Virus record (IMG/VR): IMGVR_UViG_3300009012_000001
Span: 1-56,988 of that record
Direction: 5' to 3' (one strand)
Origin: a virus
Taxonomy: Duplodnaviria > Caudoviricetes
Length of the DNA stretch: 56,988 bases
Shown in pieces: positions 13,838 to 44,578 of the stretch (positions are counted from its first letter, which is position 1; each line of letters begins with the position of its first letter). The notes under the pieces were generated by a model. The model was not told the origin of the DNA, made no database searches, and saw only the letters and a list, made by a program, of their open reading frames with translations. A program made the position numbers and the translations under genes.

Positions 13838-14004
13838 CGTCGTTCCCCCTTGTCGCCCGGTTTGTCCAACGTCAGCATCACCAACGCGCCCGGGATGGCG
13901 TCCTCCCGCGCGACGACCACGACGCCCCGCGCGGCGCACTGGCGGATGAACTCGTCCACGTCGACCGTCCGCGTGTCCACGGCCACCTTCATCGGGAATT
14001 TCAT
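13834..14004 (-). CDS. Small hypothetical protein
   Basis: ATGA coupling to the Ro60 stop. Confidence 0.5.
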   Translation of the reverse strand: MKFPMKVAVDTRTVDVDEFIRQCAARGVVVVAREDAIPGALVMLTLDKPGDKGERR

Positions 14005-15443
14005 TCCGCCGCGACGACCGGGGCTGCCATGTCCGTGCCATCCTTCGCCGCCGCGTAATCGCCCTCGGCCTCCTCCACGCGAATCCAATCTACGATACGG
14101 TCGCTGAACCCGTTCACGCGCGTCCAGCCCTGCCGCGTGTCCAGCGCGGGCGCGTAGGGCGCCACGTTGACCACGTAGGCGGCCCGGGTCCACGCCTTCC
14201 GGATGCCGTCATGCGCCTGTTCGTCCGTCACGACAACAACGCGGTCGAACCCAGCGGTCTTCGGCGCGATGGCCTCCAATGCCGCGTCCAGGTACGTCGC
14301 GCCGTGCCCCTGGCTGCGGTGGATGCCTTCCAGCAGGCCGAACCCGCGCAGGTTCGCCACCTCGACCGCCGCGTTGCTGAACGTCCAGACCCGGCATTCC
14401 TCGCACAGTTCGCGCAGCAGGATGGCGAGCGCCCCCGCCGTGTCGATGCGGGTCGGGACGAAGGACGGGGCGTAGCCGTGGCGCAGGCGCGCCCGCAGGC
14501 CGCCCGTGGCCATGGGGGAATCCATCGACTCGGACACGTCGACGACCAGCGCGGTGCGGCCCGCCAATGTCGGCCGTCCGGCCAGCGTCGCCACCATCGC
14601 TCGGTCCAAGGCGTCCGCGAACTTCGGGACCGCCCGGTACGCCGACACGAACTGGAACGGCAACGCCCGCGCCGTGCGGACCCGTGCCGGGTTGGTCAGC
14701 GCCTCCTCGACGATGGGCGTCGGGACGTCAGCGGCTTCCATGTTGCGCAGGTTGCGCAGCAAAGCCAGGTAGCCCAGCGACCGCTCGCGCAGCAGGCGTT
14801 CCCATGTCGCCTTCTTGTCCGCCCCGCCCGACAGCGCGACCTCCCAGGTATCCGGCGGCTCCAGTTCGCCCGCGAGCAGCGACTTCCACAGCGCCGACTG
14901 TGCCTCGTCGGCTGGCTTCGGGTGCGCCAGGCGCAGCACGTCGCGCAGCCGCACGACGCCCTCGCCGCCGCGGTCGTACTTCGCCAACTGGTAGGCGTCG
15001 AACTTGCCGAACGCCAGCGCCAAGCCGCGCTTGACCTGCGCGCTCAGTTTGGCCGGGGCGTTCGGCGTCTTGCCGTCGCCCCAGTAGAGGGCCAGGAATT
15101 CGGTGAGTTCGTCCGCGCGCCGGACGACCTGGGCCAAGGTGTCCCCGACCAGCCGCCCGCGGGACAGGCGCGCCAACTGCCGGACCAGCCACAGCGGGAC
15201 GTGGCGCAAGGAGAGGTCCGTCCGCGCCGACACCGCGATGGCCGCGACCGCGGCGGGGTCGACCCGCTCGCACAAATCCGCGATGCGGGTCGCGATGTCC
15301 GCGCCCGATTCATAGTAGGTGTCTTCCCAGAGCAGGCAGGACGCGACGGCGCGCCGCAGTTCCAGTTCTGGGGATTGCGCCATCGCCCGCCCGCCTTCGT
15401 GCGTCCGCGGCCGCGCCGCGGTCGGTCGGTTCGTCTTGGCCAT
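14001..15443 (-). CDS. rsr: Ro60/TROVE-domain RNA-binding protein with C-terminal vWA domain (480 aa)
   Basis: THEGG, CLLWEDTYYESG, VRRADELTEFLA, FDAYQLAKY, LRDVLRLAHPKP, TWEVALS, ALLRNLRN, MIDAS DVSES and TDEQ; AAGGGGG RBS. Confidence 0.93.
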   Translation of the reverse strand: MAKTNRPTAARPRTHEGGRAMAQSPELELRRAVASCLLWEDTYYESGADIATRIADLCERVDPAAVAAIAVSARTDLSLRHVPLWLVRQLARLSRGRLVGDTLAQVVRRADELTEFLALYWGDGKTPNAPAKLSAQVKRGLALAFGKFDAYQLAKYDRGGEGVVRLRDVLRLAHPKPADEAQSALWKSLLAGELEPPDTWEVALSGGADKKATWERLLRERSLGYLALLRNLRNMEAADVPTPIVEEALTNPARVRTARALPFQFVSAYRAVPKFADALDRAMVATLAGRPTLAGRTALVVDVSESMDSPMATGGLRARLRHGYAPSFVPTRIDTAGALAILLRELCEECRVWTFSNAAVEVANLRGFGLLEGIHRSQGHGATYLDAALEAIAPKTAGFDRVVVVTDEQAHDGIRKAWTRAAYVVNVAPYAPALDTRQGWTRVNGFSDRIVDWIRVEEAEGDYAAAKDGTDMAAPVVAAE

Positions 15444-15468
15444 GTCGTTTACGCCCCCTTGAATTTTT

Positions 15469-15556
15469 GCTGGCGGGGGAAAGGCGGACGGGGGTATCCG
15501 GGTGTCACCCCGGACCCTTCTGCGACGAAGTATCCCCGGCCTGCGCCACCGCCAAC
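15469..15556 (-). ncRNA. Putative Y RNA (YrlA-like, no tRNA-like domain), copy 2
   Basis: Terminal helix GUUGGCGG-U-GG/CC-CCGCCAGC; shares GUGGCGCAG, GGAUACUUCGUC and CGCCUUU(U)CCC with copy 1; directly upstream of Ro60. Confidence 0.75.
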
Positions 15557-15573
15557 GTTGGCCTGCGATGAAA

Positions 15574-15665
15574 ACCACCCGACGGGAAAAGGCGAACCCG
15601 GAGCGCCCCTTGCGGGGCATCGCGGTCAAGACGAAGTATCCGAATTCTGCGCCACGGCGGATGGC
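15574..15665 (-). ncRNA. Putative Y RNA (YrlA-like, no tRNA-like domain), copy 1
   Basis: Terminal helix GCCAUCCGCCG-U-GG/CC-CGUCGGGUGGU, inner stem GAAUUCGG/CCGGGUUC, GCCCC-GCAA-GGGGC hairpin; begins at the predicted TSS. Confidence 0.75.
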
Positions 15666-19213: not shown

Positions 19214-19602
19214 ACAAGATGGATTTGGAAACGTGGCGACAACAGGAAGCAGACCTCGCCACCCTCCGCGCCGAGTTGGATGCGAAGACCGCTGAGGCCG
19301 TGCGGTTGCGGGAGGCCGCATTAGACGTGGTGACGGTGCATGCTGATGTGGTCGGCGACAATCCTGGTGGAGCGATTGGAAGACTTCATGCAGCCCTCTC
19401 CTCCATGCCTGCCACCCAGAAGGAAGTCGAACGGGTGCGGGCGATGGAACGGATAGCGGAGGCAGCGAAGGAAGTCCGTGCGTGGGGTGTCGCGTTCAGC
19501 GACTCCAGGCTAGAGTACGATGAAGTGCAAGTCACAAAAGCGGCAGTGAAGGAACTGGACGATGCCCTCGCCGCCTACGAGCATCTATCGGACAAGCGAT
19601 GA
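19210..19602 (+). CDS. Hypothetical coiled-coil protein
   Basis: ATGA coupling; GGAGGAG RBS. Confidence 0.6.
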   Translation: MNKMDLETWRQQEADLATLRAELDAKTAEAVRLREAALDVVTVHADVVGDNPGGAIGRLHAALSSMPATQKEVERVRAMERIAEAAKEVRAWGVAFSDSRLEYDEVQVTKAAVKELDDALAAYEHLSDKR

Positions 19603-20015
19603 CCACACAAACTGAACTGGCATGGCTAGCAGGATTCGCAGATGGCGAAGGGAGCATTCAAATCAACTACAATCGGGCGCGAGATTTCTACGCCCTACGG
19701 TTCACGCTCACGCAAAAAGACCAAACCGTACTCATCAATATCCAGAACCAATTCGGTGGAGTGTTGGCGATTTCTGGCAAAGGTCCCCACGTCTGGTATC
19801 GTTTGGTCTGGAGTACGCGCCAAGCTGCTGAACTCTTGCGGTTATTGATGCCGTTCCTTGTCGTGAAGCGCACACAGGCGGAATTGGCGTTGCGGTTCCA
19901 AGAAGTATCTGGACGACAGCGTAAGTGGGCACGCGCATCACCCGAAAGACGAAAGATGATGCGACAAATGGCTGAGGAGATGAAGGACCTCAGACGCGAG
20001 CAGGTGGTCAAGTGA
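19599..20015 (+). CDS. Free-standing single-motif LAGLIDADG endonuclease
   Basis: LAWLAGFADGEGSI, TQKD, FGG, PFLVVKRTQA. Confidence 0.88.
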   Translation: MTTQTELAWLAGFADGEGSIQINYNRARDFYALRFTLTQKDQTVLINIQNQFGGVLAISGKGPHVWYRLVWSTRQAAELLRLLMPFLVVKRTQAELALRFQEVSGRQRKWARASPERRKMMRQMAEEMKDLRREQVVK

Positions 20016-23770: not shown

Positions 23771-24265
23771 ATGGGTGACGCCGTGGACGAAAAACGCACC
23801 GAGTCATTGCCGGACGCGTTGGACATCCCGAAAGTGAAGGACCTGCCCGCGCCGCATTTCTCCATGAGGGCCGGGAAACAGTACGTGGACTGGAAGGACC
23901 CCCACAACGCGGCGTTCATGCCAGTGCTGCAACGCATGCGGGCGCGGTATGGGAGCGAACGGGAGATGTTGAAAGCGGTGACCACCCACTGGAAGTTGCC
24001 GACGTCGAGCGCGGTCCAAAACGCTTATTACACGTGGAAAAAGACTGGGTCCCCATCCGGGAAATGGCCGTCCGACAATGGCGAGCGTCGCTCCTCCGCG
24101 CGGAAAGCGCCGAAGTTCGCGGACGTGGCGGCGGCGTCTTCTGACGCGGTCGTGGCGCCCTACGGGTCGGACGGGTCGGTGCTCATCGTCGCGACGGTGG
24201 ACGGGGTGCGACGGACGTACATCGGCTATCCCGCCGACGTCACCGTGAGAGGGAAACAGGGATGA
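23771..24265 (+). CDS. Hypothetical protein
   Basis: GGAGG RBS after an extended -10 TGGTAGAAT. Confidence 0.6.
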   Translation: MGDAVDEKRTESLPDALDIPKVKDLPAPHFSMRAGKQYVDWKDPHNAAFMPVLQRMRARYGSEREMLKAVTTHWKLPTSSAVQNAYYTWKKTGSPSGKWPSDNGERRSSARKAPKFADVAAASSDAVVAPYGSDGSVLIVATVDGVRRTYIGYPADVTVRGKQG

Positions 24266-24735
24266 CCGTCGCGGAACGTTTTTGGACGAAAGTCGAACGG
24301 CACGGAGCGAATGCGTGCTGGTTATGGCATGGCGCGGTGATGAGCAAGGGATATGGGGAATTGAATCTTGACGGCCGCCCGACGCTCGCCCATCGCCTAT
24401 CGTTCATGTTGCACGGAGGCATCGTGCTTCCGGGATTTTTCGTATGCCATACTTGCGACAACAGGCTGTGCGTCAATCCTAGACATTTGTTCCTCGGCAC
24501 CGTCGCCCACAACCAAGCGGACATGGCGGCAAAAGGCAGAAGTGCCAATGGAGAACACCACCCACAAGCGAGGTTGACGTGGGAGATGGTCCGCAGCATT
24601 CGGGCAGCGGCGGCGACGGGGAGAACCTCGCGCACGATTGCTCTCCAATTCGGATTGCCAGCGAATGGCCGACATGTCCGAAGAATCGTCGCGGGCACTA
24701 TTTGGAAAGAGAGGAGCCACACATGCCTGGGTTGA
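24262..24735 (+). CDS. HNH endonuclease with a C-terminal HTH-like region
   Basis: RFWTKV, CWLWHGA, AHRLSF, CHTCDNRLCVNPRHL..GT..N..DM..KGR. Confidence 0.88.
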   Translation: MTVAERFWTKVERHGANACWLWHGAVMSKGYGELNLDGRPTLAHRLSFMLHGGIVLPGFFVCHTCDNRLCVNPRHLFLGTVAHNQADMAAKGRSANGEHHPQARLTWEMVRSIRAAAATGRTSRTIALQFGLPANGRHVRRIVAGTIWKERSHTCLG

Positions 24736-25574: not shown

Positions 25575-25876
25575 AGACCAAGGAAGACCGGATGGCCGAA
25601 CGCGGCGCGAAGTTCCTGGACCGTCGCATCCCGCACTGGCGGAAACTCGTCGTGCGGGCGGACTTCAACATCGGCGATGGCGAGTTCTGCATCCTGGGCC
25701 ATATCTTTGGGCGGGCGCCCACGGACACCCTCACGGCACCGTTGTACGGATATGAACGGGGGCTCCGGGCGTTGGGATTGACGGAGCGCGCGGCGGAAAC
25801 GCTGGGATTCCAACCGGACGGGGACGAGGACGGCCTGCAGCGCGCCTGGCGGCGGCTCCTGCGGAGGCGGGGCTGA
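25571..25876 (+). CDS. Phage hypothetical protein (paralog of 13547-13837)
   Basis: RGAKFLD..PHW..CILGHIFG..LGL..LGF..AW. Confidence 0.65.
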   Translation: MKTKEDRMAERGAKFLDRRIPHWRKLVVRADFNIGDGEFCILGHIFGRAPTDTLTAPLYGYERGLRALGLTERAAETLGFQPDGDEDGLQRAWRRLLRRRG

Positions 25877-26127
25877 TGTGGGACGCCATCGCGAAGTGCG
25901 ACGCCATCGTCGGGGACTACGTGCAGCGCCTTGACCCCGTGCTCGTCTACGCCAAGAACCTGCCGTTCCTCTGCACGCAGCAATACCTGGGCCAGCGCAC
26001 GCTATGGGTGGCGCTAGCCATCCTCGGTATCGCATTGGTTGGTGTGACGTGGGCGCTGGTATGGATGGACGTGACCAACCAGCGGACGGAACGGGACCGA
26101 CAACTCGGGCATCCGAGTGTTCGGTAA
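25876..26127 (+). CDS. Membrane protein
   Basis: TGATG coupling; one TM helix. Confidence 0.55.
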   Translation: MWDAIAKCDAIVGDYVQRLDPVLVYAKNLPFLCTQQYLGQRTLWVALAILGIALVGVTWALVWMDVTNQRTERDRQLGHPSVR

Positions 26128-26170
26128 TGTGCCGCTAATGATAGTTAGGGGTACATGAAAAGAGGGGGGA

Positions 26171-26398
26171 ATGGAGATGCTGGGCAAACTGTTCGAGTTC
26201 GCCATCCTGCACCACAGCCAGCCGACCAAGGCGGAGGAAGAGGCGGGCAAGAAGCCCATGACCACCGTGCTGGTGGACCCGAAGCGCATCGTCGCCGCCG
26301 ACGACAGCAAGGCGCTGCTCATCGCCGCGCGGGAAATCCCGCAAGAATACCTGGACGGGCGGCTGGACGAAATTGAGGTCATCATCCGGCCTTTCTGA
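26171..26398 (+). CDS. Small phage protein ending RPF, with a possible -1 frameshift extension to 26664
   Basis: KLFEFAILHH..AAREIP..IEVIIRPF; the -1 frame stays open to 26664. Confidence 0.75.
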   Translation: MEMLGKLFEFAILHHSQPTKAEEEAGKKPMTTVLVDPKRIVAADDSKALLIAAREIPQEYLDGRLDEIEVIIRPF

Positions 26399-26724
26399 AG
26401 GCGCCTCTCCCGGTCCCGCAAGGGAAACGGGCGGAGGCGAAGCCGACGATAGGGGAAGAGCCGTCCGTGCGGGAATTGCTGAAGTCCCAACCGAACTTCC
26501 CGCAAAGGCGGAAACAATACCAACCCGCGTGGTCGATGTCGGACTCGTCAACATCGGCCTTCACGAATTTGGCGGTTACGGCGGGCAGCACGGCATCGAG
26601 CACGTCCTACCGCGGCGCGACATTGTCCGACGCCGTGACGGGAGGTGACACGCCGCACGGATAGGCGGCATCTGGCACGCGGCACCACCCATCCGCACGA
26701 CCCGACAAGGGGAGGGGAACCCAG

Positions 26725-26943
26725 ATGAAGACAGGACGGCTCATCGTACTCGACCGCAGCGGGCACACCACGGTGGAATACAACCGCGCTGACCCTGCGG
26801 ACGTGGCGCGCGCGGACAAGGTCCTGGCCGACGCGCTCGCCCAGGGGCGCCTCGCCTACCGCGAGGACACCCAACAGGTCGTCAGGACCATCGACCCGGA
26901 GGCGGAGGAAATCGTAGTCCTGCCGCGGCTGGTGGGCGGGTAA
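26725..26943 (+). CDS. Small protein with C-terminal di-glycine (putative ubiquitin-like)
   Basis: 72 aa ending EIVVLPRLVGG-stop, a ThiS/MoaD-type tail; strong RBS. Confidence 0.7.
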   Translation: MKTGRLIVLDRSGHTTVEYNRADPADVARADKVLADALAQGRLAYREDTQQVVRTIDPEAEEIVVLPRLVGG

Positions 26944-26950
26944 ACAGTCT

Positions 26951-27334
26951 GTGCCGTATCTGTTCACCGACACGCCCGACGGGCGTGCCACCGAATTCCT
27001 GAAGACGCGGATGGGGACGGACGCGTTCGACGCGCTCGTCGAGCGCGGCTACGTGGACGTCCCCATCCCGGACGACCAGTACCGTCTGGGCGGTCCGATG
27101 GGCGGCGTGCGCCTGGTGCAGCATGGGGCCATCCGCGTCACGGCTGGCGGCACCGTCAACATCGTGCATCAGGGGACCAACAACCTGTGCGTTTCGTTGT
27201 GCGTCTACGTCGTGCTGGGGACGCCGACGGATGAGAACTTCCTTCGGTCCATCCCGCTGGCCGACCGCGTGTTCACGTTCTGGTTCCTGGCGCGCGTCGA
27301 CCCCCAGGCCTTGCTTCGGGCGGCGAACGCATGA
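26951..27334 (+). CDS. Ubl-associated Cys protein, paralog 1
   Basis: RATEFL..RMG..GYVDVPIPD..LCVYVV..IPLADRVF..FLARVDP..LLRAAN. Confidence 0.7.
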   Translation: MPYLFTDTPDGRATEFLKTRMGTDAFDALVERGYVDVPIPDDQYRLGGPMGGVRLVQHGAIRVTAGGTVNIVHQGTNNLCVSLCVYVVLGTPTDENFLRSIPLADRVFTFWFLARVDPQALLRAANA

Positions 27335-27735
27335 CGGCCGATGAAGAAACGGCGGAAGCGCGGGCCGCCGCGTTTTTGGAGCGTCGGATGGGAGACGTTG
27401 CGTGGCGGGCGTTTCTCGCGTCCGGCCATGTCGACATCCCCCTCCCAGACGGCCGCTATGCCAGCGGCGGAGGATGCCCATGCCCGGTGTGTTCGCGCCC
27501 GCGTCGGTTGGTGAACGCGGCGCTGCGCGTCACTCATGGCGCGAAATTGACCGTCGTCATCCGCGACACCGGAGTTTGCCTCGGCGACTGTTGCGTCTAC
27601 GTCGTTGGGGAACGGGATAATGATGGCGACCGATGGCTTCCGGTAGGCGACAAGATTTACGCGCTATGGGCCATCGCGCGCGTGAATGCCAAAGTCCTGT
27701 TCCAAAAAGGCCGATGGACCTGGGCAGCACCATGA
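27331..27735 (+). CDS. Ubl-associated Cys protein, paralog 2 (extra CPCPVC insert)
   Basis: RAAAFL..RMG..GHVDIPLPD..GDCCVYVV..LPVGDKIYALWAIARVN. Confidence 0.7.
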   Translation: MTADEETAEARAAAFLERRMGDVAWRAFLASGHVDIPLPDGRYASGGGCPCPVCSRPRRLVNAALRVTHGAKLTVVIRDTGVCLGDCCVYVVGERDNDGDRWLPVGDKIYALWAIARVNAKVLFQKGRWTWAAP

Positions 27736-28346
27736 TGCCTACTATCCCGTGGCTCGCGGACCTGCGGGCCGAACGGTTCCTACGGAAACGGATGGGGACG
27801 GCCGCCTACGCCACGTTCCAACTGCGCGGCTTCGTGGACGTCCCCATCCCCGATGGCACCTACAAAACCTTCCTCGGCCAAACCGCGCTCGCGCGGGCGG
27901 CCGTCCGCGTGGCCGCGAACGCGAAGATGTCGGTCGTCAGTCAAGACGACGGCCGGCCCATCGGCGACTGCTGCGTCTACGCCGTCGACGACCGCGCGGA
28001 TTTTCTGACGGACGGCCGTTCGCGGCTCCCGGTGGCCGACCAAATCTACGCGCTGTGGTTCCTGGCGCGCGTCGACCCGCATCGGCTCTTGGCGAACGCC
28101 AACTACGCCGCGCGGGCGGCCGTCGCCCCCATGACGGTCAATCCCCAATGGGCGGTCACCGTCGCCCCCATGACGGTCACCGTCAGCACGGCGAACATCG
28201 TCAGCACGGCGAACATCATCAGCACGGCGAACATCGTCAGCACGGCGAACATCAACGATATCACCATCACCATCATCGCCGACGGGCGGCAGTGGCGCAT
28301 CAACAACGGCGCATGGCGCGTCATCGACACGGGCGGCGGGACGTGA
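27732..28346 (+). CDS. Ubl-associated Cys protein, paralog 3, with a repetitive C-terminal tail
   Basis: RAERFL..RMG..GFVDVPIPD..GDCCVYAV..LPVADQIYALWFLARVDP..LLANAN. Confidence 0.7.
   Translation: MMPTIPWLADLRAERFLRKRMGTAAYATFQLRGFVDVPIPDGTYKTFLGQTALARAAVRVAANAKMSVVSQDDGRPIGDCCVYAVDDRADFLTDGRSRLPVADQIYALWFLARVDPHRLLANANYAARAAVAPMTVNPQWAVTVAPMTVTVSTANIVSTANIISTANIVSTANINDITITIIADGRQWRINNGAWRVIDTGGGT
28182..28253 (+). repeat. Four tandem 18-bp coding repeats encoding (V/I)STANI
   Basis: RTCAGCACGGCGAACATC x4; a 21-bp direct repeat also lies at 28120-28140 and 28159-28179. Confidence 0.9.
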
Positions 28347-28446
28347 CCCATGCGGCTGTTCGAAATCCTCGTCGCGGCCGCGGTCCTGGTGAGCAGCCTG
28401 GTCTACATCGTCAACACGCTGGTCCAATGGAAGGAGCGGAAATCCC

Positions 28447-29340
28447 ATGTGGGCGATTCAACTGCTGATATTCCTGGCGGGGACGGCGGTGGCGGTGGCC
28501 ATCGGCCTCCGCGCCTACCGCGTTGAGCCGCGGCATCACATCAACCCGACCCTGCTGGTGCTGGCCGTCGTGGTCTGGGTCGGCGCGGTTTCGTTGGTGT
28601 CGGCGTTCGGGCAGGTGCCGGCGGGCTACCGCGGCGTCGTGTTGCGGTTCGGCGCGCCGACGGGGCAGGTGCTGGACCCCGGCCTATTCGCCATCATGCC
28701 CGCCGTGACGAGCGTGGCCATTATGAGCATCCAGACCGAGGCGTACGAAACGGACGCGGCGGCCGCCAGCAGCGACCTGCAGGACGTCCACACCAAGGTC
28801 ACGCTGAACTTCGCGCTCGACCCCGCGGCGGTCGTGACCGTCTACCAGAACCTGCGGCACGACTACATCGCGCGCATCGTCAAGCCGGCCATCCAGGAGG
28901 CCGTGAAGGCGGCCACGGCGGAATACACGGCGGAAGAACTCATTACCAAGCGGCCAGCCGTCCGCGACCGCATCGAGCGCATCCTGGAGCAGCGGCTGTC
29001 CAAGTTCGGCATCGCCGCACAGGCGCTGTCCATCACCGACTTCGAGTTCAGCAAATCCTTCAACGACGCCATCGAGGCCAAGGTGACCGCGCAGCAACGC
29101 GCGCTGGAGGCGCAGCGGACCCTGGAACGGGTGAAGTTCGAAGCCCAGCAGCGCATCGAGCAGGCCAAGGCCCAGGCCGAAGGGCTGCGCCTGCAGCAGG
29201 CCGTCGTCACCCCCGAACTCATCCAACTGCGCCGCGTCGAGGCGTTGCTGGCCGCCATCGAGAAATGGGACGGCAAGATGCCGACCGTCGTGACGGGGTC
29301 CGGACCCGTGCCGCTGCTGGATGTCTTCCGGCAGCCCTAA
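28447..29340 (+). CDS. SPFH/Band-7 (prohibitin-like) membrane protein
   Basis: Two TMs, VPAGYRGVVLRFG, SSDLQDV, QEAVKAATA..AEELITKR, FNDAIEAKV, IEKWDG..P. Confidence 0.92.
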   Translation: MWAIQLLIFLAGTAVAVAIGLRAYRVEPRHHINPTLLVLAVVVWVGAVSLVSAFGQVPAGYRGVVLRFGAPTGQVLDPGLFAIMPAVTSVAIMSIQTEAYETDAAAASSDLQDVHTKVTLNFALDPAAVVTVYQNLRHDYIARIVKPAIQEAVKAATAEYTAEELITKRPAVRDRIERILEQRLSKFGIAAQALSITDFEFSKSFNDAIEAKVTAQQRALEAQRTLERVKFEAQQRIEQAKAQAEGLRLQQAVVTPELIQLRRVEALLAAIEKWDGKMPTVVTGSGPVPLLDVFRQP

Positions 29341-29396
29341 ACCCAAAAACCTCAGAAAACCCGCCAAAACGCGGGGAATGTGATGGGTGGGACCCC

Positions 29397-29455
29397 TTGA
29401 CAGGGGGTTCTACCTATGCTATCTTTATACCAGAGAGGGAAGCACCCAGGGGAGG
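29397..29455 (+). promoter_or_regulatory. Promoter cassette with TTCTACC motif
   Basis: TTGACA-N17-TATCTT (TG extension); TTCTACC at the same offset; CCCAGGGGAGG. Confidence 0.8.
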
Positions 29456-29464
29456 GAACAGACG

Positions 29465-29683
29465 ATGGCAACCATACCCGAGTACCTGACCAGCACCCAC
29501 CCCGGCGACATCTGCCGGAACCAGCATTGCCAGGAAGCAGTGAAGCAGAACGCGGAAACGCACCGCTACTTCATCACGATGGGTCACGCGGGATTCAACA
29601 GCATCAGGAACAATGGAATCGGATACGCGACGTGGGACCGGGCGCACGCAGCCTTCAGGTTCTACCTCCAAGGTGGTCGATGA
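29465..29683 (+). CDS. Small phage protein
   Basis: Strong RBS; YFITMGHAGFNS..NN..GY. Confidence 0.65.
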   Translation: MATIPEYLTSTHPGDICRNQHCQEAVKQNAETHRYFITMGHAGFNSIRNNGIGYATWDRAHAAFRFYLQGGR

Positions 29684-29826
29684 TGGACCCAGACATCCAG
29701 AAGGGTATCCTCGCCGCCCTGGAACGCATCGCGGCCGCGCTCGAAGGGCTGGCCAACACGGTCAGCGAACCACGCGAGGGGTTCCCCAGCATCCGCGTCA
29801 CGGACTACCCGAAGACGCGGCCATAA
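29680..29826 (+). CDS. Small hypothetical protein
   Basis: ATGA coupling; ALERIAAALE. Confidence 0.5.
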   Translation: MMDPDIQKGILAALERIAAALEGLANTVSEPREGFPSIRVTDYPKTRP

Positions 29827-29853
29827 TGCCGACCGGCCTTCCGCAGGTGCGGT

Positions 29854-30162
29854 TCATCGCGGCGGCAACGGGGTCGGGGCGGGTGACGGCTTGAAGTCAA
29901 TCCATTCGTGGATGCCAGAACTGGCGAACCCCTGCGTCACCGCCGCGACGAGCGTCACCAGCGCCGCCCGCAGGTCCCCCGGCAACTGCTGAAACAAGGC
30001 TTCCCCCACGACGGCGCCCGCGAGGTTGAGCAGCATCGCGGTCGTGCGCGGGTTGCGCTTGACCCACGGGTTGACCTTCAGCCAGTTCACGATGGCCTGC
30101 ACCACAAACGGCTGGCCAATCAGCCACAGCGCGATGGCGTAGGGGACTTGGCCAGGGTCCAT
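29854..30162 (-). CDS. Holin-like membrane protein (paralog of 36999-37277)
   Basis: About 3 TMs next to the endolysin; GFASSGIHE. Confidence 0.65.
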   Translation of the reverse strand: MDPGQVPYAIALWLIGQPFVVQAIVNWLKVNPWVKRNPRTTAMLLNLAGAVVGEALFQQLPGDLRAALVTLVAAVTQGFASSGIHEWIDFKPSPAPTPLPPR

Positions 30163-30534
30163 CTAACTCACGACGTAGGCGTGCGGGTCAAACTCCACAT
30201 GCACGTGCGGTTGCGGGCTTGGCCAATAGAGGCTCTGCGGCAACGCGGGCGGTTTCGTCGGGGCTTCGTAGAGCACGTCGTAGCCTGGCAGCGCGGCGGC
30301 GATGGCGACGATGAGCGCGGGCAGGACGGCGGCGTCGACGTGAAACGTCTTGTAGTCGTGCGCCAGCCCCAGGTAGTGTTTGGAGCCGACCATGTGCGCG
30401 CCGTCGGTGCCAGACGTGATTTGGCAGTCGTAGCCGCGGGCGGCGAACAGGGCGGCCACGACGAGGTCGGCGAGGACCATGCGCGGGTCGAGCGCCTTCA
30501 ACTGGACGTCGGACTTCAACGTCACCAGAGTCAT
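30163..30534 (-). CDS. Peptidase M15-like endolysin
   Basis: ITSGTDGAH..SKHY.GLAHD..HVHVEFDP zinc motifs. Confidence 0.8.
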   Translation of the reverse strand: MTLVTLKSDVQLKALDPRMVLADLVVAALFAARGYDCQITSGTDGAHMVGSKHYLGLAHDYKTFHVDAAVLPALIVAIAAALPGYDVLYEAPTKPPALPQSLYWPSPQPHVHVEFDPHAYVVS

Positions 30535-31843: not shown

Positions 31844-32639
31844 TCACGATGATGAGACCTTGAACCGCGCGTACTCGAGCAGGATATCGCTTTGGGCGGC
31901 CCCGAGCACGCGGGACACGTGCGTCATCCCGAGCACGGCACGGCTGACGATATTTGTCGTCAGCGTTTGCTGCAACGACCCATTGAAATAATAGTCAATA
32001 CTGTTCGGCTTGGCGATCACCTTGAATTGATGGAATGTATTGACGGCCACGTTAATGTCAGACCCATCGGTACCCGTCCCTTCCTTTTTCTGTTGGGGTC
32101 GCAACTTCCCGCTGTTCACCATGGTCCAAGCGGCGAAATCCGAGAGCAATGTCGTCAGCAGTCCGCCCGCTTGCGCCAACCCGATGAGAATGCCCGCCGA
32201 ATTCGCGCGCCAGTTGGTGTCGAGGGTAGGGAAGAAGACCCACGCTTCGTAACTGATGCTGCCCCATTCCCCGACATGCGCCGTCTTTTTGGTGATGAGA
32301 TCAGCACTGTCGCCGCCATCGGCGATGAGGTCCACAATCCCTCGGCTCACGGGGGAAGTCCGAACTAAACTCGTCCCGACGATCCCAGCCCGCATCGTCC
32401 AATATGTGTCGATGTCGGCCAACGCGCCGCCGGTCACGTTCGCACTGGCCACGATGAACGTATTCGCGATATCCCGGTCGCCCGGCGTGTCGGGTAGGTT
32501 GCTAATATTCCCCGTATCCGCGTAGATGGTCCGCCACGTCAGCGCTGACGTCCCCAAATCATAGGTACTCGCCGCCTGCGGTTTGAGTGTCTGCGGGTCG
32601 AGCACACCCGCCACGCCATGGATGTGGTCGCGGATATTG
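31844..32639 (-). CDS. Tail fibre/receptor-binding protein, exon 2 (lectin-like C-terminus)
   Basis: The frame NIRDHIHGVAGV..TYDLGTSALTWRTIYAD continues exon 1 (QMNQVEV) after splicing. Confidence 0.75.
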
Positions 32640-32836
32640 CTGGAAAATCCTCGTTATCGCTAACGAGATTGGACTATATCTTACTGCGAGATTCCGCAGC
32701 CCCCGCATGTAGTCTCTGAGGGGTCCCGATGGACTTCCCTGCTGATTGGCCGCACCCGACGATTGTCACCGACTCCGGTACGTCGGGATACCCGGCTGTT
32801 CCAGCATATAGCGGGGTTACGAGGCCAACTTATCCG
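32640..32836 (-). ncRNA. ORF-less group I self-splicing intron (197 nt)
   Basis: P UAUAUGCUGGAA, Q AAUCAGCAGG, R UCAGAGACUACA, S AAGAUAUAGUCC; P1 CGAGGU/GCCUCG with a U-G pair at the splice site; P9 CUCGUUA-GCGA-UAACGAG; terminal G at 32640. Confidence 0.93.
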
Positions 32837-32908
32837 ACCTCGACCTGATTCATTTGGGCCGCCGTGAGCACTTGGCCCACGCTAGAAAGTCTGGAATGAA
32901 TACGCCAT
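32837..32908 (-). CDS. Tail fibre exon 1 (MAYSFQTF/SVGQVLTAAQMNQVEV), broken by one extra nucleotide
   Basis: ATG 32908 after GGAGG; TTC TAG at 32887-32882 needs a +1 shift to reach the spliced frame. Confidence 0.6.
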
Positions 32909-32914
32909 CCCAGG

Positions 32915-33451
32915 TCAACGCCTCCATCCCCACGCAAACTCCGCGGCGGTCTTGGCGTGTTTTCGAAGGTTGCACGACGAACAGGCGCAGCAGATGTTGT
33001 CTGGCCAATTCGTCCCGCCGCGGGCCAATGGAATCTTGTGGTCTACATGAAAACGCCCATGCAATTGCCGCCAACAATAGAAACACTGTGCGCGTTGTGT
33101 CGCGTAGATACGCGCGACATCGTGGATTCCGTACCAACCAATCGCCTGCGCCTTGCGGGCTCGCCGATAGCGACGACGCGCACGCAGGCGCGATTCAACA
33201 CGCAACCTCGTGGCATACCGCCTTCGGTAACGACGTTGACTTTCCAATCGGCGACGAGGATACCGCTGACGGTATCGTGCCGAAGCCATCCTATTCGCAG
33301 CGCGGATTTGTTCTGGATGTCGTGCCTTCAACAATCGCCATGCCTTGCGTCCACAGGCGCGGCATGATGGGCATAATCCGTCGTACCTCTGTCTGTCGCG
33401 GGAATATGCGACAAATGGTTTCCAACGGCGGCATTTCGTGCAACGTTTCAT
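32915..33451 (-). CDS. Free-standing HNH homing endonuclease with N-terminal zinc finger
   Basis: KRCTKC..CRAC; CFYC..HVDHKIPLARGGTN..N..ACSSCNLRK. Confidence 0.9.
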   Translation of the reverse strand: MKRCTKCRRWKPFVAYSRDRQRYDGLCPSCRACGRKAWRLLKARHPEQIRAANRMASARYRQRYPRRRLESQRRYRRRYATRLRVESRLRARRRYRRARKAQAIGWYGIHDVARIYATQRAQCFYCWRQLHGRFHVDHKIPLARGGTNWPDNICCACSSCNLRKHAKTAAEFAWGWRR

Positions 33452-33720
33452 TCGATGGCCACATATGTTCCTTCGACAAGGCGCGTGATTCTTCCGTCTG
33501 GTTCGATGCGGTATTCACCTGCCGCCGGGTCAAGATGGTGATTCCGCAGAATCTGTTCCCCATCGGCCCGCTCGATGTCCTCAGATTTCTCAATACGCTC
33601 TTCGGCCAATCGCACTAATCGTCGCCACTCCGCCGTCGCCACACCAATCATATAGGCATCGTGGTCGCGCCGCTTGCGCTGTTCAAGAATCTTGGCCAGT
33701 TCCTCATCCGTGATTCTCAA
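33448..33720 (-). CDS. Hypothetical protein
   Basis: Probable TTG start coupled to the upstream stop; GGGGAG RBS. Confidence 0.55.
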   Translation of the reverse strand: MRITDEELAKILEQRKRRDHDAYMIGVATAEWRRLVRLAEERIEKSEDIERADGEQILRNHHLDPAAGEYRIEPDGRITRLVEGTYVAIE

Positions 33721-35195
33721 AATGCCAGCTCTCTCCCCGAATCTAGTTTCCCGAGCGTGGCGTGGTCGAGCACCAGCCACGGCCCTGTTTCCTGCAGGTG
33801 CGCCGCGTAGGTCGTCGTGTGCTCCAGGCCACGCACCAGGGCGATGTCGTGCGCCAATCCCGTGACCACAAACCCCGTGCCCACCGCCGTGTTCGATTCC
33901 ACGAGGTAGACGAGGTCCCCCAACTCCCGCGCCAGGACGTCTGGGAAGACGTTCTTCAGCGCGAACGTCACGTCAGGAACCGGGTCCTTGCGCTGCAGCA
34001 CCAGGAAATCGGCGTAGTCCTGGGCGTGTTGGAACTTGCCGATGAAGTCGCTTTGCAGCGACAGGTTCCGGACGCCGTAGAGGGTTTGGCTACTGGCGGT
34101 CGCCGATTGTCGCAGGATGTCGGGCTGGCGCTGGATGCTGTAGCCGCGGACCTGGAATTTGTTGAGGTAGGTCTGGTCCGACGACCCATTGAAGACCGTC
34201 GCCACCGCCGTGGTGCCGAAAAACGTGACGCTGGCGGACGCCGTCGCCGTGCGGTCGAACGAGAACAACCCGAAAAACGGGTCGGTCGGCACCAAATACC
34301 CGCTAATCGTGCTCAGGATGTAATCCGCGCTCCGCGTCACCGACACGCTTTGCGCGGGCGTGTCGCGTTCCAACGAGTCCGGGTCGAGGTAGGTGAGCCA
34401 GAATCCCACGGATGACGACGCGGAGATTGTGGGAACCTCCTGCAGCCACGCCACCGTCTGCACGGACGAGGCGATGCGCCGCGGGGTCCCCTGGACCTTG
34501 ATGGCGTTGACGACTTGGTCGTCGGACAGGGTGTAGCCGAACCCGAAAAAGTCATTGACGTAACTGGCCACCGCCGAACTGCCCAGGTCCAGGTAGCGCG
34601 TGCGCAGGTTGACCCGACCGGCGCCGTCGACCCACAGGTGGGAATACCCGAACCGGGCGATGTCTTCCAGCGCGCGCACGGGCTCGTATTCGCGGAACCA
34701 CGCGAACGGGATGAGGTCCCACGGCGGCAACACATCCACGCTGCGGTCGGCCGCCGCCACCCCCGCCGCCGACAGCACGTCGGTGGCGAGGCTGCTGGGG
34801 GCGATGTCGACCGCGATGGACGTGTCGATGCGCCGGCGGGCGAGGTCCTTCACGCGGTCGGTGGCCTGCATCCGCGCCGTGCGCCGTGCCAATTCTGGGT
34901 CGGGCGCCCACGCGTCGACAAACCCAGCGAACAGTTGGTAGGTGGTGACGTTGTGGATGGCGAGGATGCGGACCCGCTTGTTCGGTTTCAGGTTCGGCGC
35001 GTACGGCGAGGCGGCGTTCTCCGGGCTGAACAACCCCGCGTTGTTGTCCAGGAGCAGGTCGCACCGCCCGGGGGACAGGGAGTCGAAGATGGTCGCGCGG
35101 TCGCGTGTGACGCCGACGCGCAGGCAATAGGACGACAGGTTCGTGTAACTCCCCGCGACGAATTCGACGCCGACTTCGTAGGTGGGCGTGGCCAC
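33717..35195 (-). CDS. Tail tip/baseplate hub-like minor tail protein
   Basis: Follows the tape measure; LDNNAGLFSPEN..SPY, LFAGFVD, ELGDLV, LVLDHATLGKLD. Confidence 0.8.
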   Translation of the reverse strand: MATPTYEVGVEFVAGSYTNLSSYCLRVGVTRDRATIFDSLSPGRCDLLLDNNAGLFSPENAASPYAPNLKPNKRVRILAIHNVTTYQLFAGFVDAWAPDPELARRTARMQATDRVKDLARRRIDTSIAVDIAPSSLATDVLSAAGVAAADRSVDVLPPWDLIPFAWFREYEPVRALEDIARFGYSHLWVDGAGRVNLRTRYLDLGSSAVASYVNDFFGFGYTLSDDQVVNAIKVQGTPRRIASSVQTVAWLQEVPTISASSSVGFWLTYLDPDSLERDTPAQSVSVTRSADYILSTISGYLVPTDPFFGLFSFDRTATASASVTFFGTTAVATVFNGSSDQTYLNKFQVRGYSIQRQPDILRQSATASSQTLYGVRNLSLQSDFIGKFQHAQDYADFLVLQRKDPVPDVTFALKNVFPDVLARELGDLVYLVESNTAVGTGFVVTGLAHDIALVRGLEHTTTYAAHLQETGPWLVLDHATLGKLDSGRELAF

Positions 35196-39818: not shown

Positions 39819-40751
39819 TCAGCCCGTCACTCCCTCTCGCACGAGGCCGACTTGTTCGGCGACCAATTCCGTGAACCCGACCAATGGATGCCATCCCGTC
39901 GCGGTCATAAACTTCCGCGGGGCGGCGACTAACGCGGGCGGGTCGTTCGGCCTGGCCAGCGCTGGGTCCGTCCTGACCTTCGCCACGTCGACGCCGAGCA
40001 GGCCGCACGCCGTCCGCACGACGTCCCAGACACGGCGACCGTCACTAGAACCGATGACCCAGTCGTCTGGCGGCTGCAGCAACGCCACACGCATGGCGCG
40101 GACCATGTCGTCCGCATGGCACCAATCCCGGACGATTTCCTGGTCACCCAGGACCAATTCGTCCACCCGCCCGTCCTTGATGGCCCGCACGCCCGCGCAG
40201 ACCTTGTAGAACACGCCGTACCGCTTGCGTGGCGATTCGTGCTGGTACAGGATGCCGCAGGTCACGGGCAGTCCGTACTGCAGGCGGTACATCCGCGCCA
40301 GATGGTAAGCGGCGAGTTTGCTGCCATCGTAGGGCGTCAGCGGATGCATCGGCGTACCTTCGTGCTGTGGGGCGGGCGCGAGCCCAAACATGCCGCTGCT
40401 CGCCGCGACGAAGACCTTCGGCGGTTTGGGCATCGTCCGCGCCGCCTCCAGCACGGCCAGTGTCCCGCCGACATTGACGTGGTGGTAACGCCACGGCGCG
40501 TCCCAACTGTCCGTGACGAGGTTGAGCGCGGCGAGGTGGTAGACTTCGTCGGGGGCGCGTTCCCCGAGGAGTTGGCGTACCAGCCACGCGTCCGTCACGT
40601 CACCCTTCGTCACGAACCCAGCCGACGGGGCGGCGTCCCGCAGCGACGGCGTCGCCGCGTCCATGCCGGATACCTCGTAGCCCATCCCGGCCAAATGCCG
40701 CGCCAGATACCACCCGTCCTGTCCCGCGATGCCCGTGATGAAGGCTTTCAT
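39819..40751 (-). CDS. GDP-mannose 4,6-dehydratase-like SDR
   Basis: AFITGIAGQDGWYLA, PDEVYHLAA, PYDGSK, GILYQHESP, RDWCHA; ASSGMFG lacks the usual Glu. Confidence 0.85.
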   Translation of the reverse strand: MKAFITGIAGQDGWYLARHLAGMGYEVSGMDAATPSLRDAAPSAGFVTKGDVTDAWLVRQLLGERAPDEVYHLAALNLVTDSWDAPWRYHHVNVGGTLAVLEAARTMPKPPKVFVAASSGMFGLAPAPQHEGTPMHPLTPYDGSKLAAYHLARMYRLQYGLPVTCGILYQHESPRKRYGVFYKVCAGVRAIKDGRVDELVLGDQEIVRDWCHADDMVRAMRVALLQPPDDWVIGSSDGRRVWDVVRTACGLLGVDVAKVRTDPALARPNDPPALVAAPRKFMTATGWHPLVGFTELVAEQVGLVREGVTG

Positions 40752-41506
40752 GCTGGCAGAATCACCGCCCCCAAGAATTCCTCGCCTTTCCCGATATATT
40801 GGCATCGTTCGACGCGGCCGAACCCCTCGACCCGCAGGGCGAGTTTGGCTGGCGAGTACCAATCGGCAAAGTCCCCGACCTCGTCGCAGGCGCGCACAAA
40901 CCGCTGGAATGCCGTGTGCGTGCTGATGTCCATGTCAATCGGCGGTAGGGGGATGCCCAGCGCCGTCCAGCGTCGGTCGGAATACACGAGGATGCGGGCC
41001 TCCTCACACCAGCCCAACGCCTCGCGGAGAATGTCCCGTATCTGCGGCGTGTGGTGAAGCGTCCCGGACGAATAGAAAATTTCCATGTCGGACCATGTCG
41101 GTGTTCCGTCCATCATCACCGACGCCTTGCAATTCGCGTAGCCGTGGAGTTCCAATACGCGGATGGCCAGCGCAACGTTGTCCGGCACGATGTCGGTGAC
41201 CATGACGTCGTTCCCCGCCCGCGCGAACTGCAGGGCCTCCAGCCCGACGCCGCACCCGAAATCCAGGATGCGTTTGCCGTGCGTCGTGTCCAGCCCGAAG
41301 AACTCGCGCCATCCGTTGTGCCAGTTGCGCCAGCCGTTGACGTCGTAGCGGGTCCGTTCCATCTGCGCGATGGTGGCCCGCAGGTGGTCGTCGGACCACT
41401 GGAGCATGTGCGCCGAGGAGATGTAGCCCACGTCGTCCACGGGCGGGCGCGCCCATTCCGCCTTGGCCCGCACGGCGTCATAGCCCACGGTCGTAACGCC
41501 ATTCAT
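40748..41506 (-). CDS. Class I SAM-dependent methyltransferase
   Basis: ILDFGCGVG, TDIV, YSSGTLHH. Confidence 0.8.
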   Translation of the reverse strand: MNGVTTVGYDAVRAKAEWARPPVDDVGYISSAHMLQWSDDHLRATIAQMERTRYDVNGWRNWHNGWREFFGLDTTHGKRILDFGCGVGLEALQFARAGNDVMVTDIVPDNVALAIRVLELHGYANCKASVMMDGTPTWSDMEIFYSSGTLHHTPQIRDILREALGWCEEARILVYSDRRWTALGIPLPPIDMDISTHTAFQRFVRACDEVGDFADWYSPAKLALRVEGFGRVERCQYIGKGEEFLGAVILPA

Positions 41507-41647
41507 TCATGGCGGCGCGCCACCACGCCGTGGCCCACCCGTCTTCTACCACGGATTCTTGCGACACCACCAACCCTTCGAACAAAAACGCCTGCATGTC
41601 GGGCATCCACATTGGCGTCCCCAGTTGTTGCGACCACGCGTACAGGT

Positions 41648-42064: not shown

Positions 42065-42086
42065 CCGGTGAATCCACTGCGCCGCC

Positions 42087-44397: not shown

Positions 44398-44406
44398 CGA
44401 ATCCCC

Positions 44407-44435
44407 TTGACGGCAGGGTGGTATCTTGGTATAAT
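44407..44435 (+). promoter_or_regulatory. Consensus promoter opposing the late operon
   Basis: TTGACG-N17-TATAAT with TG extension. Confidence 0.75.
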
Positions 44436-44440
44436 GCTAC

Positions 44441-44570
44441 CTGGATGGGGCGGCGCGGACGGCGGGACGCGCGAAACCGTCACAGGGAAGCCCGCCATGC
44501 GAACCACAAGCGCGTAGCCAGGCCGGGGCACAACCCGGTCACGAGTGGAAACCAACGCCGCCCCGCCCGG
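44441..44570 (+). ncRNA. Putative structured small RNA of unknown class
   Basis: Begins at the predicted TSS; closing helix GGGGCGGCG/CGCCGCCCC; internal hairpins. Confidence 0.55.
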
Positions 44571-44578
44571 CCGTAATT

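What the first reader, a model, noticed from the sequence alone, without database searches (positions are those of the whole stretch)
26725..28346. Phage ubiquitin-like protein followed by three tandem Cys-containing, possibly E2-like paralogs
Seen: a 72-aa protein ending IVVLPRLVGG-stop, then three coupled paralogs sharing RAxxFLxxRMG, GxVD(V/I)P(I/L)PD, an invariant Cys in CVY(V/A)V, PxxD, and WxxARV with LLxxAN in two of them. Known: a free C-terminal GG marks ThiS/MoaD/ubiquitin modifiers, E2s carry the catalytic Cys before C-terminal helices ending LLxxPN, and bacterial Ubl/E1/E2 systems (Bil, CBASS Cap2) act against phage. No E1 or JAB is recognisable in this complete genome. Inference, speculative on fold: a phage-side conjugation module charged by a host E1 or working without one, with diversified paralogs for different targets, or a decoy for host Ubl defence. 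An SPFH gene follows. I do not recognise this as a described system.
Basis: partly seen in the sequence, partly recalled or inferred. Interest (0 to 1): 0.85.

Follow-up and report, generated by a model that had tools for sequence, protein, structure and literature searches.

The report
Phage Gly-Gly protein with cysteine partners
A soil phage carries a small protein ending in a free Gly-Gly, followed by three diverged copies of a partner gene that keep one cysteine; it may be a stripped-down, undescribed protein-tagging or decoy kit, but neither the folds nor any chemistry are established.

The parts
26709..26717 (+). Shine-Dalgarno-like GGGGAGGGG, 7 nt upstream of the start of gene A
   Evidence: read from the sequence
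26725..26943 (+). Gene A: 72-aa acidic protein ending in a free Gly-Gly (…IVVLPRLVGG-stop); the candidate tag or carrier
   Evidence: ORF and translation; GC3 0.88; 5 of 6 members of its 90% cluster end LVGG; AF2 single-sequence model beta-beta-alpha-beta-beta with a disordered tail, pLDDT 72.6; no family hit in 4 libraries
26951..27334 (+). Gene B: paralog 1 (127 aa), invariant Cys84 in LCVYVV
   Evidence: AF2 model pLDDT 67.8 with helix-helix, six strands, loop, helix-helix
27331..27735 (+). Gene C: paralog 2 (134 aa). ATGA overlap with B. Extra CPCPVC insert. The invariant Cys is residue 88 (CCVYVV)
   Evidence: closest metagenome homolog P0005 is 79% identical, dN/dS 0.39
27732..28106 (+). 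Gene D, N-terminal paralog domain (residues 1-125). ATGA overlap with C. The invariant Cys is residue 81 (CCVYAV)
28107..28346 (+). Gene D, variable low-complexity tail ending GGGT-stop; it contains an 18-nt x 4.1 tandem repeat (28181-28253) encoding STANI(V/I) x4
   Evidence: the homolog tail differs and ends GGGA
28350..28526 (+). Small ORF with a hydrophobic N-terminal segment, conserved in metagenome locus L006; it overlaps the SPFH start. Uncertain whether it is a gene
   Evidence: dN/dS 1.10 over 57 codons
28447..29340 (+). SPFH/Band_7 (HflK/prohibitin-like) membrane protein, downstream neighbour, not obligatorily linked
   Evidence: Pfam Band_7 5.9e-34; phrog_200 4.5e-52; weak HflK 6.9e-08, below cut-off; absent from variant L005

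Best explanation
Genes A to D form a real, co-translated accessory cassette at the end of the early (+ strand) gene block of a complete temperate soil phage. I read it as a diverged member of an undescribed phage two-gene module, with the partner gene triplicated. The module is a small protein with a free C-terminal Gly-Gly, followed by a partner whose about 125-residue alpha/beta domain keeps one cysteine. Shown here: the anatomy, the paralogy, the absence of a recognisable E1 or JAB, and the recurrence of 'GG protein directly upstream of a CVY-cysteine partner' in a second, unrelated phage lineage (Atu_ph07, Phosso and metagenome relatives). Inferred: the GG tail of A is presented to, or carried as a thioester on, the invariant Cys of B, C and D, which would make them E2/RWD-like carriers. 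Activation would be borrowed from a host ThiF/MoeB-type adenylating enzyme. The three fast-evolving paralogs would address different targets or hosts. Whether the outcome is tagging of host or phage proteins, or a decoy that soaks up a host Ubl-based defence, is open.
For: (1) Anatomy and coupling.
(2) The Cys is invariant in 6 of 6 family sequences. Those are B, C, D and three metagenome homologs, at 31-65% identity to B.
(3) GG ends 5 of 6 variants of A.
(5) Independent test. The Foldseek BFVD rank-4 hit of the B model was A0A2L0UZL2 of Agrobacterium phage Atu_ph07 (397 aa, prob 0.89, E 0.13). The only unannotated 397-aa CDS in that genome is 181237-182430(-). The gene 4 nt upstream of it encodes 117 aa ending ...FAGG-stop. 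Only 3 of 916 ORFs of >=80 aa in that genome end in GG.
(6) That pair is adjacent and coupled in Sinorhizobium phage Phosso too. Its GG family ends GG in 6 of 6 cluster representatives at 55-62% identity. Its partner family keeps the Cys in 7 of 7 at 31-85% identity.
(7) hhalign of our paralog profile against that partner family aligns 72 columns colinearly. Our residues 9-87 match their 200-270, and our Cys84 falls on their invariant Cys267 in a shared CVY motif. E is 0.0033 for this single comparison; against one sequence it is E 0.014.
(8) Atu_ph07 also has no ThiF or Prok-JAB at E<=1.
(9) The Atu-type GG family's best PDB sequence hit is the BAG6 chain of 2n9p, E 0.019. That this chain is BAG6's ubiquitin-like domain is recalled. 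The alignment shows a ubiquitin-like 'vP.e..kLf..Gkv' segment, but part of the score comes from an acidic tag.
Against: The A model found no ubiquitin, ThiS or MoaD chain in 50 rows, and its C-terminal 18 residues are disordered. It was a single-sequence model.
A to D have no hit to any Ubl, E2, E1 or JAB profile in Pfam, NCBIfam or PADLOC. PHROGs and PADLOC gave only three unrelated weak rows (E 0.044 to 0.34).
The hhalign probability is only 9.6%, and the alignment stops at the Cys. The Atu family's invariant His278, His285 and Cys286 have no counterpart here. Our family has no invariant His or Asn.
A is not significantly similar to the Atu-type GG protein: BLASTP found nothing and hhalign gave E 0.1. 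The part of that family resembling BAG6 (residues 21-81) is not the part that aligns with A (residues 1-39).
The family is tiny. A profile search of 1.84 billion representatives gave 10 hits. Four are the window's own products or near-identical forms and fragments, three are metagenome homologs, and three I dropped as repetitive surface proteins. So the invariance of Cys and GG has little power.
One A variant ends LVAIRIR, and another diverges after residue 46.
The nearest phage by capsid (56% identity) lacks the cassette.
dN/dS is 0.39-0.68, which indicates weak constraint.
No E2 is known to be charged without an E1.
Confidence: 0.4

Rival explanations
1. Lineage-specific, fast-evolving accessory ORFans with no functional connection to ubiquitin-like chemistry. 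In this reading A is a small alpha/beta protein whose GG end is incidental, like the small phage inhibitors and antitoxins its model weakly resembles. B, C and D are a duplicated binding-protein family whose Cys is a buried structural residue in a hydrophobic strand (C-V-Y-V-V). The Atu_ph07 parallel would be coincidence.
For: No family hit in four libraries. Fold matches are all below noise. The A model's weak neighbours include Dmd, Cas2 and AcrIF9. 2 of 75 ORFs in this phage end in GG by chance. dN/dS is 0.39-0.68. The cassette is missing from the nearest capsid relative, and variants with deletions exist. The Cys lies in a hydrophobic strand-like motif.
Against: In Atu_ph07 the structure-guided hit has a GG-ending gene directly upstream, although only 3 of 916 ORFs there end in GG. 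hhalign puts the two Cys motifs in register. GG and Cys are invariant across that second family. UBC/RWD entries make up about a quarter of the VIA rows.
Confidence: 0.3
2. A non-catalytic decoy or adaptor. B, C and D would be RWD/UEV-like binding domains that hold the GG tail of A or of a host ubiquitin-like protein. The cassette would block a host Ubl-based defence (Bil, Bub, or CBASS with Cap2) instead of conjugating anything.
For: RWD and UEV-like rows are as frequent as E2 rows. There is no catalytic His or Asn near the Cys. There is no E1. Three diversifying paralogs fit an arms race. Inactive RWD-like E2-fold proteins that probably bind Ub-like moieties are predicted in bacterial operons (PMC1779556, passages read).
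Against: The Cys is the one residue kept in both phage families, which a pure binder would not need. The host is unknown, so no target system can be named. The folds are unconfirmed.
Confidence: 0.15
3. A is a ThiS/MoaD/TtuB-type sulfur carrier mimic that uses or jams a host ThiF/MoeB-type adenylase. B, C and D would be persulfide- or thiocarboxylate-handling Cys proteins.
For: A has a free GG terminus like ThiS and MoaD (property recalled and stated in PMC1779556). The partners have a single conserved Cys. ThiF-family proteins occur in all 14 control genomes, so a host enzyme is plausible.
Against: A has no Pfam ThiS or MoaD hit at E<=1. No sulfur-metabolism genes were seen in the phage. The fold is not confirmed.
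Confidence: 0.05

Closest known systems
Bil systems (BilABCD; class 6c/6d operons of Iyer et al. 2006)
   Different: All Bil operons encode an E1 and a JAB peptidase (PMC11601603, passage read); this phage has neither. BilB keeps a His next to the catalytic Cys (PMC10557695, passage read); our family has no invariant His. Bil is carried by bacteria, whereas this cassette is carried by a phage and has three partners. There is no profile hit.
Undescribed 'GG protein + CVY-Cys partner' pair of jumbo rhizobiophages (Atu_ph07 MF403008 182435-182788 / 181237-182430; Phosso PV764938)
   Same: The GG-ending small protein lies directly upstream and is coupled to the partner. The partner has an invariant Cys in a CVY motif that hhalign aligns with ours (E 0.0033). 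Atu_ph07 has no ThiF or Prok-JAB. Both are annotated 'hypothetical protein'.
   Different: Their GG protein is 116-120 aa, not 72. Their partner is about 400 aa, with an extra N-terminal half and invariant His278, His285 and Cys286 after the Cys, and there is one partner copy, not three. Similarity to ours is weak: probability 9.6% for the partners and E 0.1 for the GG proteins.
ThiS/MoaD sulfur carriers and E1-only modifiers (Urm1, archaeal SAMPs, Thermus TtuB; recalled)
   Same: A small protein with a free C-terminal Gly-Gly. No E2 of the canonical family. Could be served by a housekeeping ThiF/MoeB-type enzyme.
   Different: Those sit with, or depend on, an E1-like adenylase and have no Cys-partner paralogs. 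A has no ThiS hit in Pfam.
Lambdoid tail assembly protein I (TAPI) Ub-like domain with TAPK JAB/NlpC (Iyer et al. 2006, PMC1779556, passages read)
   Same: A phage-encoded ubiquitin-related protein with a conserved C-terminal glycine of the domain.
   Different: TAPI lies in the tail-assembly cluster with a JAB peptidase and is processed. Here the genes lie in the early/accessory block, with no JAB and with Cys partners.
E2-only CBASS (CdnG-E2; PDB 8hsb, title seen; biology recalled)
   Different: That E2 acts on a CD-NTase in a bacterial defence operon. There is no CD-NTase here, and no PADLOC hit to a defence family for A to D.

Membership tests
UBC/E2 superfamily (Pfam UQ_con and Prok-E2 families) | Sequence match to an E2 profile | tested here: not met
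   No Pfam hit at E<=1 for B, C or D. No NCBIfam hit at all, and no PADLOC hit to an E2 family; the only PADLOC row is a CARF model at E 0.044. The profile against PDB sequences gives only unrelated hits at E>=0.58.
UBC/E2 superfamily (Pfam UQ_con and Prok-E2 families) | UBC/RWD alpha-beta(meander)-alpha fold | tested here: inconclusive
UBC/E2 superfamily (Pfam UQ_con and Prok-E2 families) | Conserved catalytic Cys after the last sheet strand, with a flanking HPN (canonical) or nearby His (BilB-type) | tested here: inconclusive
   A Cys is invariant in 6 of 6 sequences and follows the last predicted strand. No invariant His or Asn exists anywhere in the domain. A residue-level superposition on an E2 was not available.
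UBC/E2 superfamily (Pfam UQ_con and Prok-E2 families) | Forms a thioester with the Ubl C-terminus | not testable with these tools
   Needs biochemistry. The complex predictor was unavailable.
Bil / Bub bacterial ubiquitination-like operons | E1 (ThiF-family adenylating enzyme) encoded in the system | tested here: not met
   No ThiF among 83 ORFs, nor in six frames at E<=10, with positive controls ringing in 14 of 14 genomes.
Bil / Bub bacterial ubiquitination-like operons | JAB/JAMM peptidase (Bil, Type I Bub) or DUF6527 protease (Bub) | tested here: not met
   No JAB family among 83 ORFs. No Prok-JAB in six frames at E<=10. DUF6527 was covered only by the general Pfam scan of ORFs.
Ubiquitin-like beta-grasp modifiers (ubiquitin, ThiS, MoaD, BilA) | Free or exposable C-terminal Gly(-Gly) | tested here: met
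   A ends ...RLVGG-stop. 5 of 6 members of its 90%-identity cluster end the same way and one ends LVAIRIR.
Ubiquitin-like beta-grasp modifiers (ubiquitin, ThiS, MoaD, BilA) | Beta-grasp fold | tested here: inconclusive
   The single-sequence AF2 model gives beta-beta-alpha-beta-beta in the order and spacing of ubiquitin, but the last strand and tail are unmodelled (pLDDT<50 for residues 64-72). 0 of 50 VIA rows and no Foldseek row at E<=0.001 is a Ubl. The weak rows include the UBA3 ubiquitin-fold domain at E 0.85 and GB1.
Ubiquitin-like beta-grasp modifiers (ubiquitin, ThiS, MoaD, BilA) | Sequence match to a Ubl profile | tested here: not met
   No Pfam, NCBIfam, PADLOC or PHROG hit at E<=1. 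phmmer against PDB found no Ubl.
Phage 'GG protein + Cys partner' pair (Atu_ph07/Phosso type; no published name found) | GG-terminated small protein directly upstream of, and coupled to, the partner | tested here: met
   Here: a 7-nt gap between A and B, then ATGA overlaps. Atu_ph07: a 4-nt gap. Phosso: the partner start overlaps the stop.
Phage 'GG protein + Cys partner' pair (Atu_ph07/Phosso type; no published name found) | Partner domain homologous, with the invariant Cys in register | tested here: inconclusive
   hhalign E 0.0033, probability 9.6%, 72 columns, Cys84 on Cys267. Foldseek BFVD prob 0.89, E 0.13. An HMM search of the Atu_ph07 genome with our profile found nothing at E<=10.
Phage 'GG protein + Cys partner' pair (Atu_ph07/Phosso type; no published name found) | GG proteins homologous | tested here: inconclusive
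   BLASTP gave no alignment. hhalign gave E 0.1 over 39 N-terminal columns.
SPFH/Band 7 (downstream gene) | Band_7 domain above the Pfam cut-off | tested here: met
   118.1 bits against a cut-off of 23.6.

The most novel reading that the evidence does not exclude
Phages of unrelated lineages carry a minimal ubiquitin-like tagging kit: a Gly-Gly tag plus an E2-like cysteine carrier, with no E1 and no deubiquitinase. One lineage is this 57-kb soil temperate phage; the other is the 470-490-kb rhizobial jumbo phages. The kit would be charged by a host ThiF/MoeB-type enzyme, or by an unknown E1-independent route. The phage would use it to modify host or phage proteins, or to subvert Ubl-based defence. 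In this phage the carrier has been triplicated and is diversifying to reach different targets.
Probability: 0.25. Interest if true: 0.85.

Novelty: new variant of a known kind. Interest (0 to 1): 0.6.

Why it matters
Ubiquitin-like conjugation in prokaryotes is known so far as a bacterial weapon against phages (Bil, Bub, and CBASS with Cap2), always with an E1. A phage-borne GG tag with cysteine partners and no E1 would be the viral side of that conflict. It would also raise the question of whether an E2-like protein can be charged by a borrowed housekeeping adenylase. My three full-text searches found no description of such a phage pair (no paper with a phrase such as 'phage-encoded ubiquitin-like'). 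The Atu_ph07 and Phosso pair sits in cultured phages with tractable hosts, so the idea can be tested at the bench. If the rival reading is right, this is one more fast-evolving phage ORFan cassette and is of ordinary interest.

Tried and rejected
The tool was then declared unavailable, so no result exists.
- blastn of 26000-30000 against 50,697 phage records found no match. tblastn of A and of D against the same collection found no match at E<=1.
- The search for related loci with B or the paralog profile found no relatives in viral contigs or genome contigs. In metagenome contigs it found three short contigs of close relatives only.
- The ESM Atlas gave only unnamed 'hypothetical protein' clusters for A (score 0.91) and nothing usable for D (0.77).
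- The word-index search for A gave 2 proteins, one of them A itself. The single exhaustive HMMER job went to the paralogs, so A was never searched exhaustively.
- Of the 10 hits of that job I dropped three (P0008, P0010, P0012). They are long repetitive surface-type proteins matching in 3-10 stretches, judged by eye.
- The SPFH context in Burkholderia phage CSP3 showed nothing similar upstream.
- The promoter/terminator scan of 25800-30200 was at the chance level. Repeats upstream of A were unremarkable.
- No RNA holder is listed among the sequencing runs; there are four soil-metagenome DNA holders.
- The top BFVD hit, A0A1P8DIP4 (E 0.015, TMq 0.55), has no name and I could not locate its genome.
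- The partner-family profile A5 against PDB sequences gave nothing relevant.
- The nearest capsid relative, a contig in a Proteobacteria MAG, has no A, B/C/D, SPFH or endolysin match with these queries.
Full report
**1. What is there**

The window is a complete virus record of 56,988 bp with direct terminal repeats and about 66% GC. It looks like a temperate tailed phage. It has:
- a tyrosine integrase and a protein with a LexA-type DNA-binding domain;
- a Mu-like portal fused to a Mu-F domain, a large terminase, a major head protein and a tail tube.

Genes on the + strand from about 17.7 to 29.7 kb form an early/accessory block, which ends at the finding. Gene A (26725-26943) encodes 72 aa ending IVVLPRLVGG-stop and has a strong Shine-Dalgarno-like sequence 7 nt upstream. 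B (26951-27334), C (27331-27735) and D (27732-28346) follow, with a 7-nt gap and then two ATGA overlaps.

B, C and the first about 125 residues of D are paralogs. They share 34-40% identity, and the six-frame search gave E 2.8e-21 and 4.8e-19. D has a low-complexity tail that contains an 18-nt x 4.1 tandem repeat. A small hydrophobic ORF and an SPFH/Band_7 gene follow.

**2. How far the family reaches**

None of A to D has a usable hit in Pfam, PHROGs, PADLOC or NCBIfam at E<=1. The only rows are three unrelated weak ones (E 0.044 to 0.34).

A profile of the three paralogs was searched against 1.84 billion representative proteins and gave 10 hits at E<=0.001:
- four are the window's own products or near-identical forms and fragments;
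- three are homologs from soil metagenomes (P0005, P0006, P0007);
- three are long repetitive surface proteins, which I discarded by eye.

Three short metagenome contigs keep the order B-C-D. One continues into the small ORF and SPFH. In another, the D homolog runs straight into the homolog of the gene after SPFH, so SPFH is not an obligatory partner.

Across the six available sequences the invariant residues are D36, P38, P40, Y44, A60, R62, V72, C84, Y86, P102, D105, W111, A114 and L121. There is no invariant His or Asn.

A has one diverged relative, which departs from A after residue 46. It also has five variants at >=93% identity; four of them end LVGG and one ends LVAIRIR.

dN/dS against the metagenome homologs is 0.68 (B), 0.39 (C) and 0.62 (D). 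These are real genes, but weakly constrained. The nearest phage by capsid (56% identity, a contig in a Proteobacteria MAG) shows no A, B/C/D or SPFH match. With so narrow a family, conservation of GG and Cys says little by itself. In this phage 2 of my 75 ORFs end in GG.

**3. Folds**

B was modelled with a three-sequence alignment (pLDDT 67.8, pTM 0.60). The order of elements is two helices, six short strands, a poorly modelled loop that starts right after the invariant Cys, and two helices.

The A-B complex prediction could not be run.

**4. No E1 and no JAB**

No ThiF or JAB family appears among 83 candidate ORFs. Neither appears in six-frame searches at E<=10, while the control genomes ring. 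By the passages I read, every Bil operon encodes a Ubl, an E2, a JAB and an E1. Bub operons encode an E1 and E2, plus DUF6527 (PMC11601603). BilB also keeps a His next to its catalytic Cys (PMC10557695). This cassette therefore fails membership of Bil and Bub.

**5. A second lineage with the same arrangement**

After my own reading was fixed, the scan's earlier notes described a 'GG protein plus Cys partner' pair seen in other phage windows. None of those windows is a sequence look-alike of this one. I treated the notes as a lead only and tested the idea from my own data.

- The rank-4 Foldseek BFVD hit of the B model was a 397-aa uncharacterised protein of Agrobacterium phage Atu_ph07 (prob 0.89, E 0.13, TM 0.42).
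- I scanned the genome for 397-aa ORFs and found two annotated CDSs. One is an RNA ligase; the other is a hypothetical protein at 181237-182430(-).
- The gene 4 nt upstream of that protein encodes 117 aa ending FAGG-stop. Only 3 of 916 ORFs of >=80 aa in that genome end in GG.
- The partner contains ...KICVYSPNV... .
- Word-index searches gave six clusters for the GG protein, all ending GG at 55-62% identity. They gave seven clusters for the partner, with the Cys invariant at 31-85% identity. His278, His285 and Cys286 are invariant too.
- In Sinorhizobium phage Phosso the two genes are again adjacent and coupled.
- hhalign of our paralog profile against the partner family aligns 72 colinear columns, from the N-terminal helix to the Cys motif, and places C84 on C267 (E 0.0033, probability 9.6%).
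- The GG proteins are not significantly similar: BLASTP found nothing and hhalign gave E 0.1.
- Atu_ph07 also lacks ThiF and Prok-JAB at E<=1.
- The Atu-type GG family's best PDB sequence match is the BAG6 chain of 2n9p (E 0.019). By recall that chain is BAG6's ubiquitin-like domain. The alignment has a ubiquitin-like signature, but an acidic tag in the PDB chain contributes to the score.

**6. Reading**

The recurrence of a GG-ended protein directly upstream of a partner with a CVY cysteine, found through a structure hit and unlikely by chance, makes a functional GG-Cys coupling the best single explanation. I put it at about 0.4. On this reading the present cassette is a diverged member with the partner triplicated.

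The chemistry is inference. It would involve a thioester on an E2/RWD-like carrier, charging by a host ThiF/MoeB-type enzyme, and then either tagging or a decoy role. The main rival (0.3) is that these are unrelated fast-evolving accessory ORFans and the parallels are coincidental. A non-catalytic decoy or adaptor (0.15) and a sulfur-carrier mimic (0.05) remain possible.

**7. Literature**

I read the following:
- passages of Iyer, Burroughs and Aravind 2006 (PMC1779556);
- passages of the bacterial E1-E2-Ubl structure preprint (PMC10557695);
- passages of the bacterial Ubl diversity preprint (PMC11601603).

I saw only the listing and the start of the abstract of the Bil preprint (10.1101/2023.09.04.556158) and of the cGAS conjugation paper (PMC10097602).

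Three full-text searches returned no paper describing a phage-encoded Ubl plus E2-like pair without an E1. Subscription-only papers and supplements were not searched.

Noticed in passing
window 32650-32865 (-), with 32915-33451 (-): Rfam group I intron (RF00028, 53.5 bits, gathering score 50) lies next to an HNH endonuclease ORF (Pfam HNH 2.9e-11), inside the tail-gene region between ORFs 33717-35195(-) and 31844-32614(-). It is a likely mobile intron splitting a tail gene.
   Followed up: no
window 14001-15629 (-): Ro60/TROVE-domain protein (Pfam TROVE 1.2e-17; phrog_850 'RNA-binding protein' 1e-38). No Y-RNA-like family reached the Rfam gathering score and no tRNA was found.
   Followed up: no
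window 39819-47611 (-): A sugar-modification cluster sits among the structural genes. It comprises a GDP-mannose 4,6-dehydratase-like gene, two methyltransferases (one of C-methyltransferase type), a UDP-glucose/GDP-mannose dehydrogenase, and a 1010-aa fusion of GT4, methyltransferase and GT2 domains. A further GT2 lies at 778-1539(-). This suggests virion or host-surface glycan modification.
   Followed up: no
window 28107-28346 (+); L006 and P0006/P0020: The tail of D is a hydrophobic, repeat-rich segment (STANI(V/I) x4, encoded by an 18-nt tandem repeat) ending GGGT-stop. The homolog's tail is unrelated in sequence but ends GGGA-stop. Whether a Gly-rich end matters here too is open.
   Followed up: partly
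L005 (metagenome contig), P0002: There are population variants. In L005 the D homolog runs directly into the homolog of window ORF 29387-29683, so the D tail, the small ORF and SPFH are missing. P0002 is an A homolog that diverges after residue 46 into a T/I/S-rich tail. These are either deletions or assembly chimeras at repeats.
   Followed up: partly
window 8973-9482(-), 19599-20012(+), 24262-24735(+), 32915-33451(-): Four homing-type endonuclease ORFs (HNH or LAGLIDADG by Pfam/PHROGs) are scattered through a 57-kb genome.
   Followed up: no
MF403008 180955-181233(-): In Atu_ph07 the gene just downstream of the Cys partner encodes 92 aa ending ...LSLKGGRK. This is a second small protein with a near-terminal GG, possibly a precursor-type tail.
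   Followed up: no
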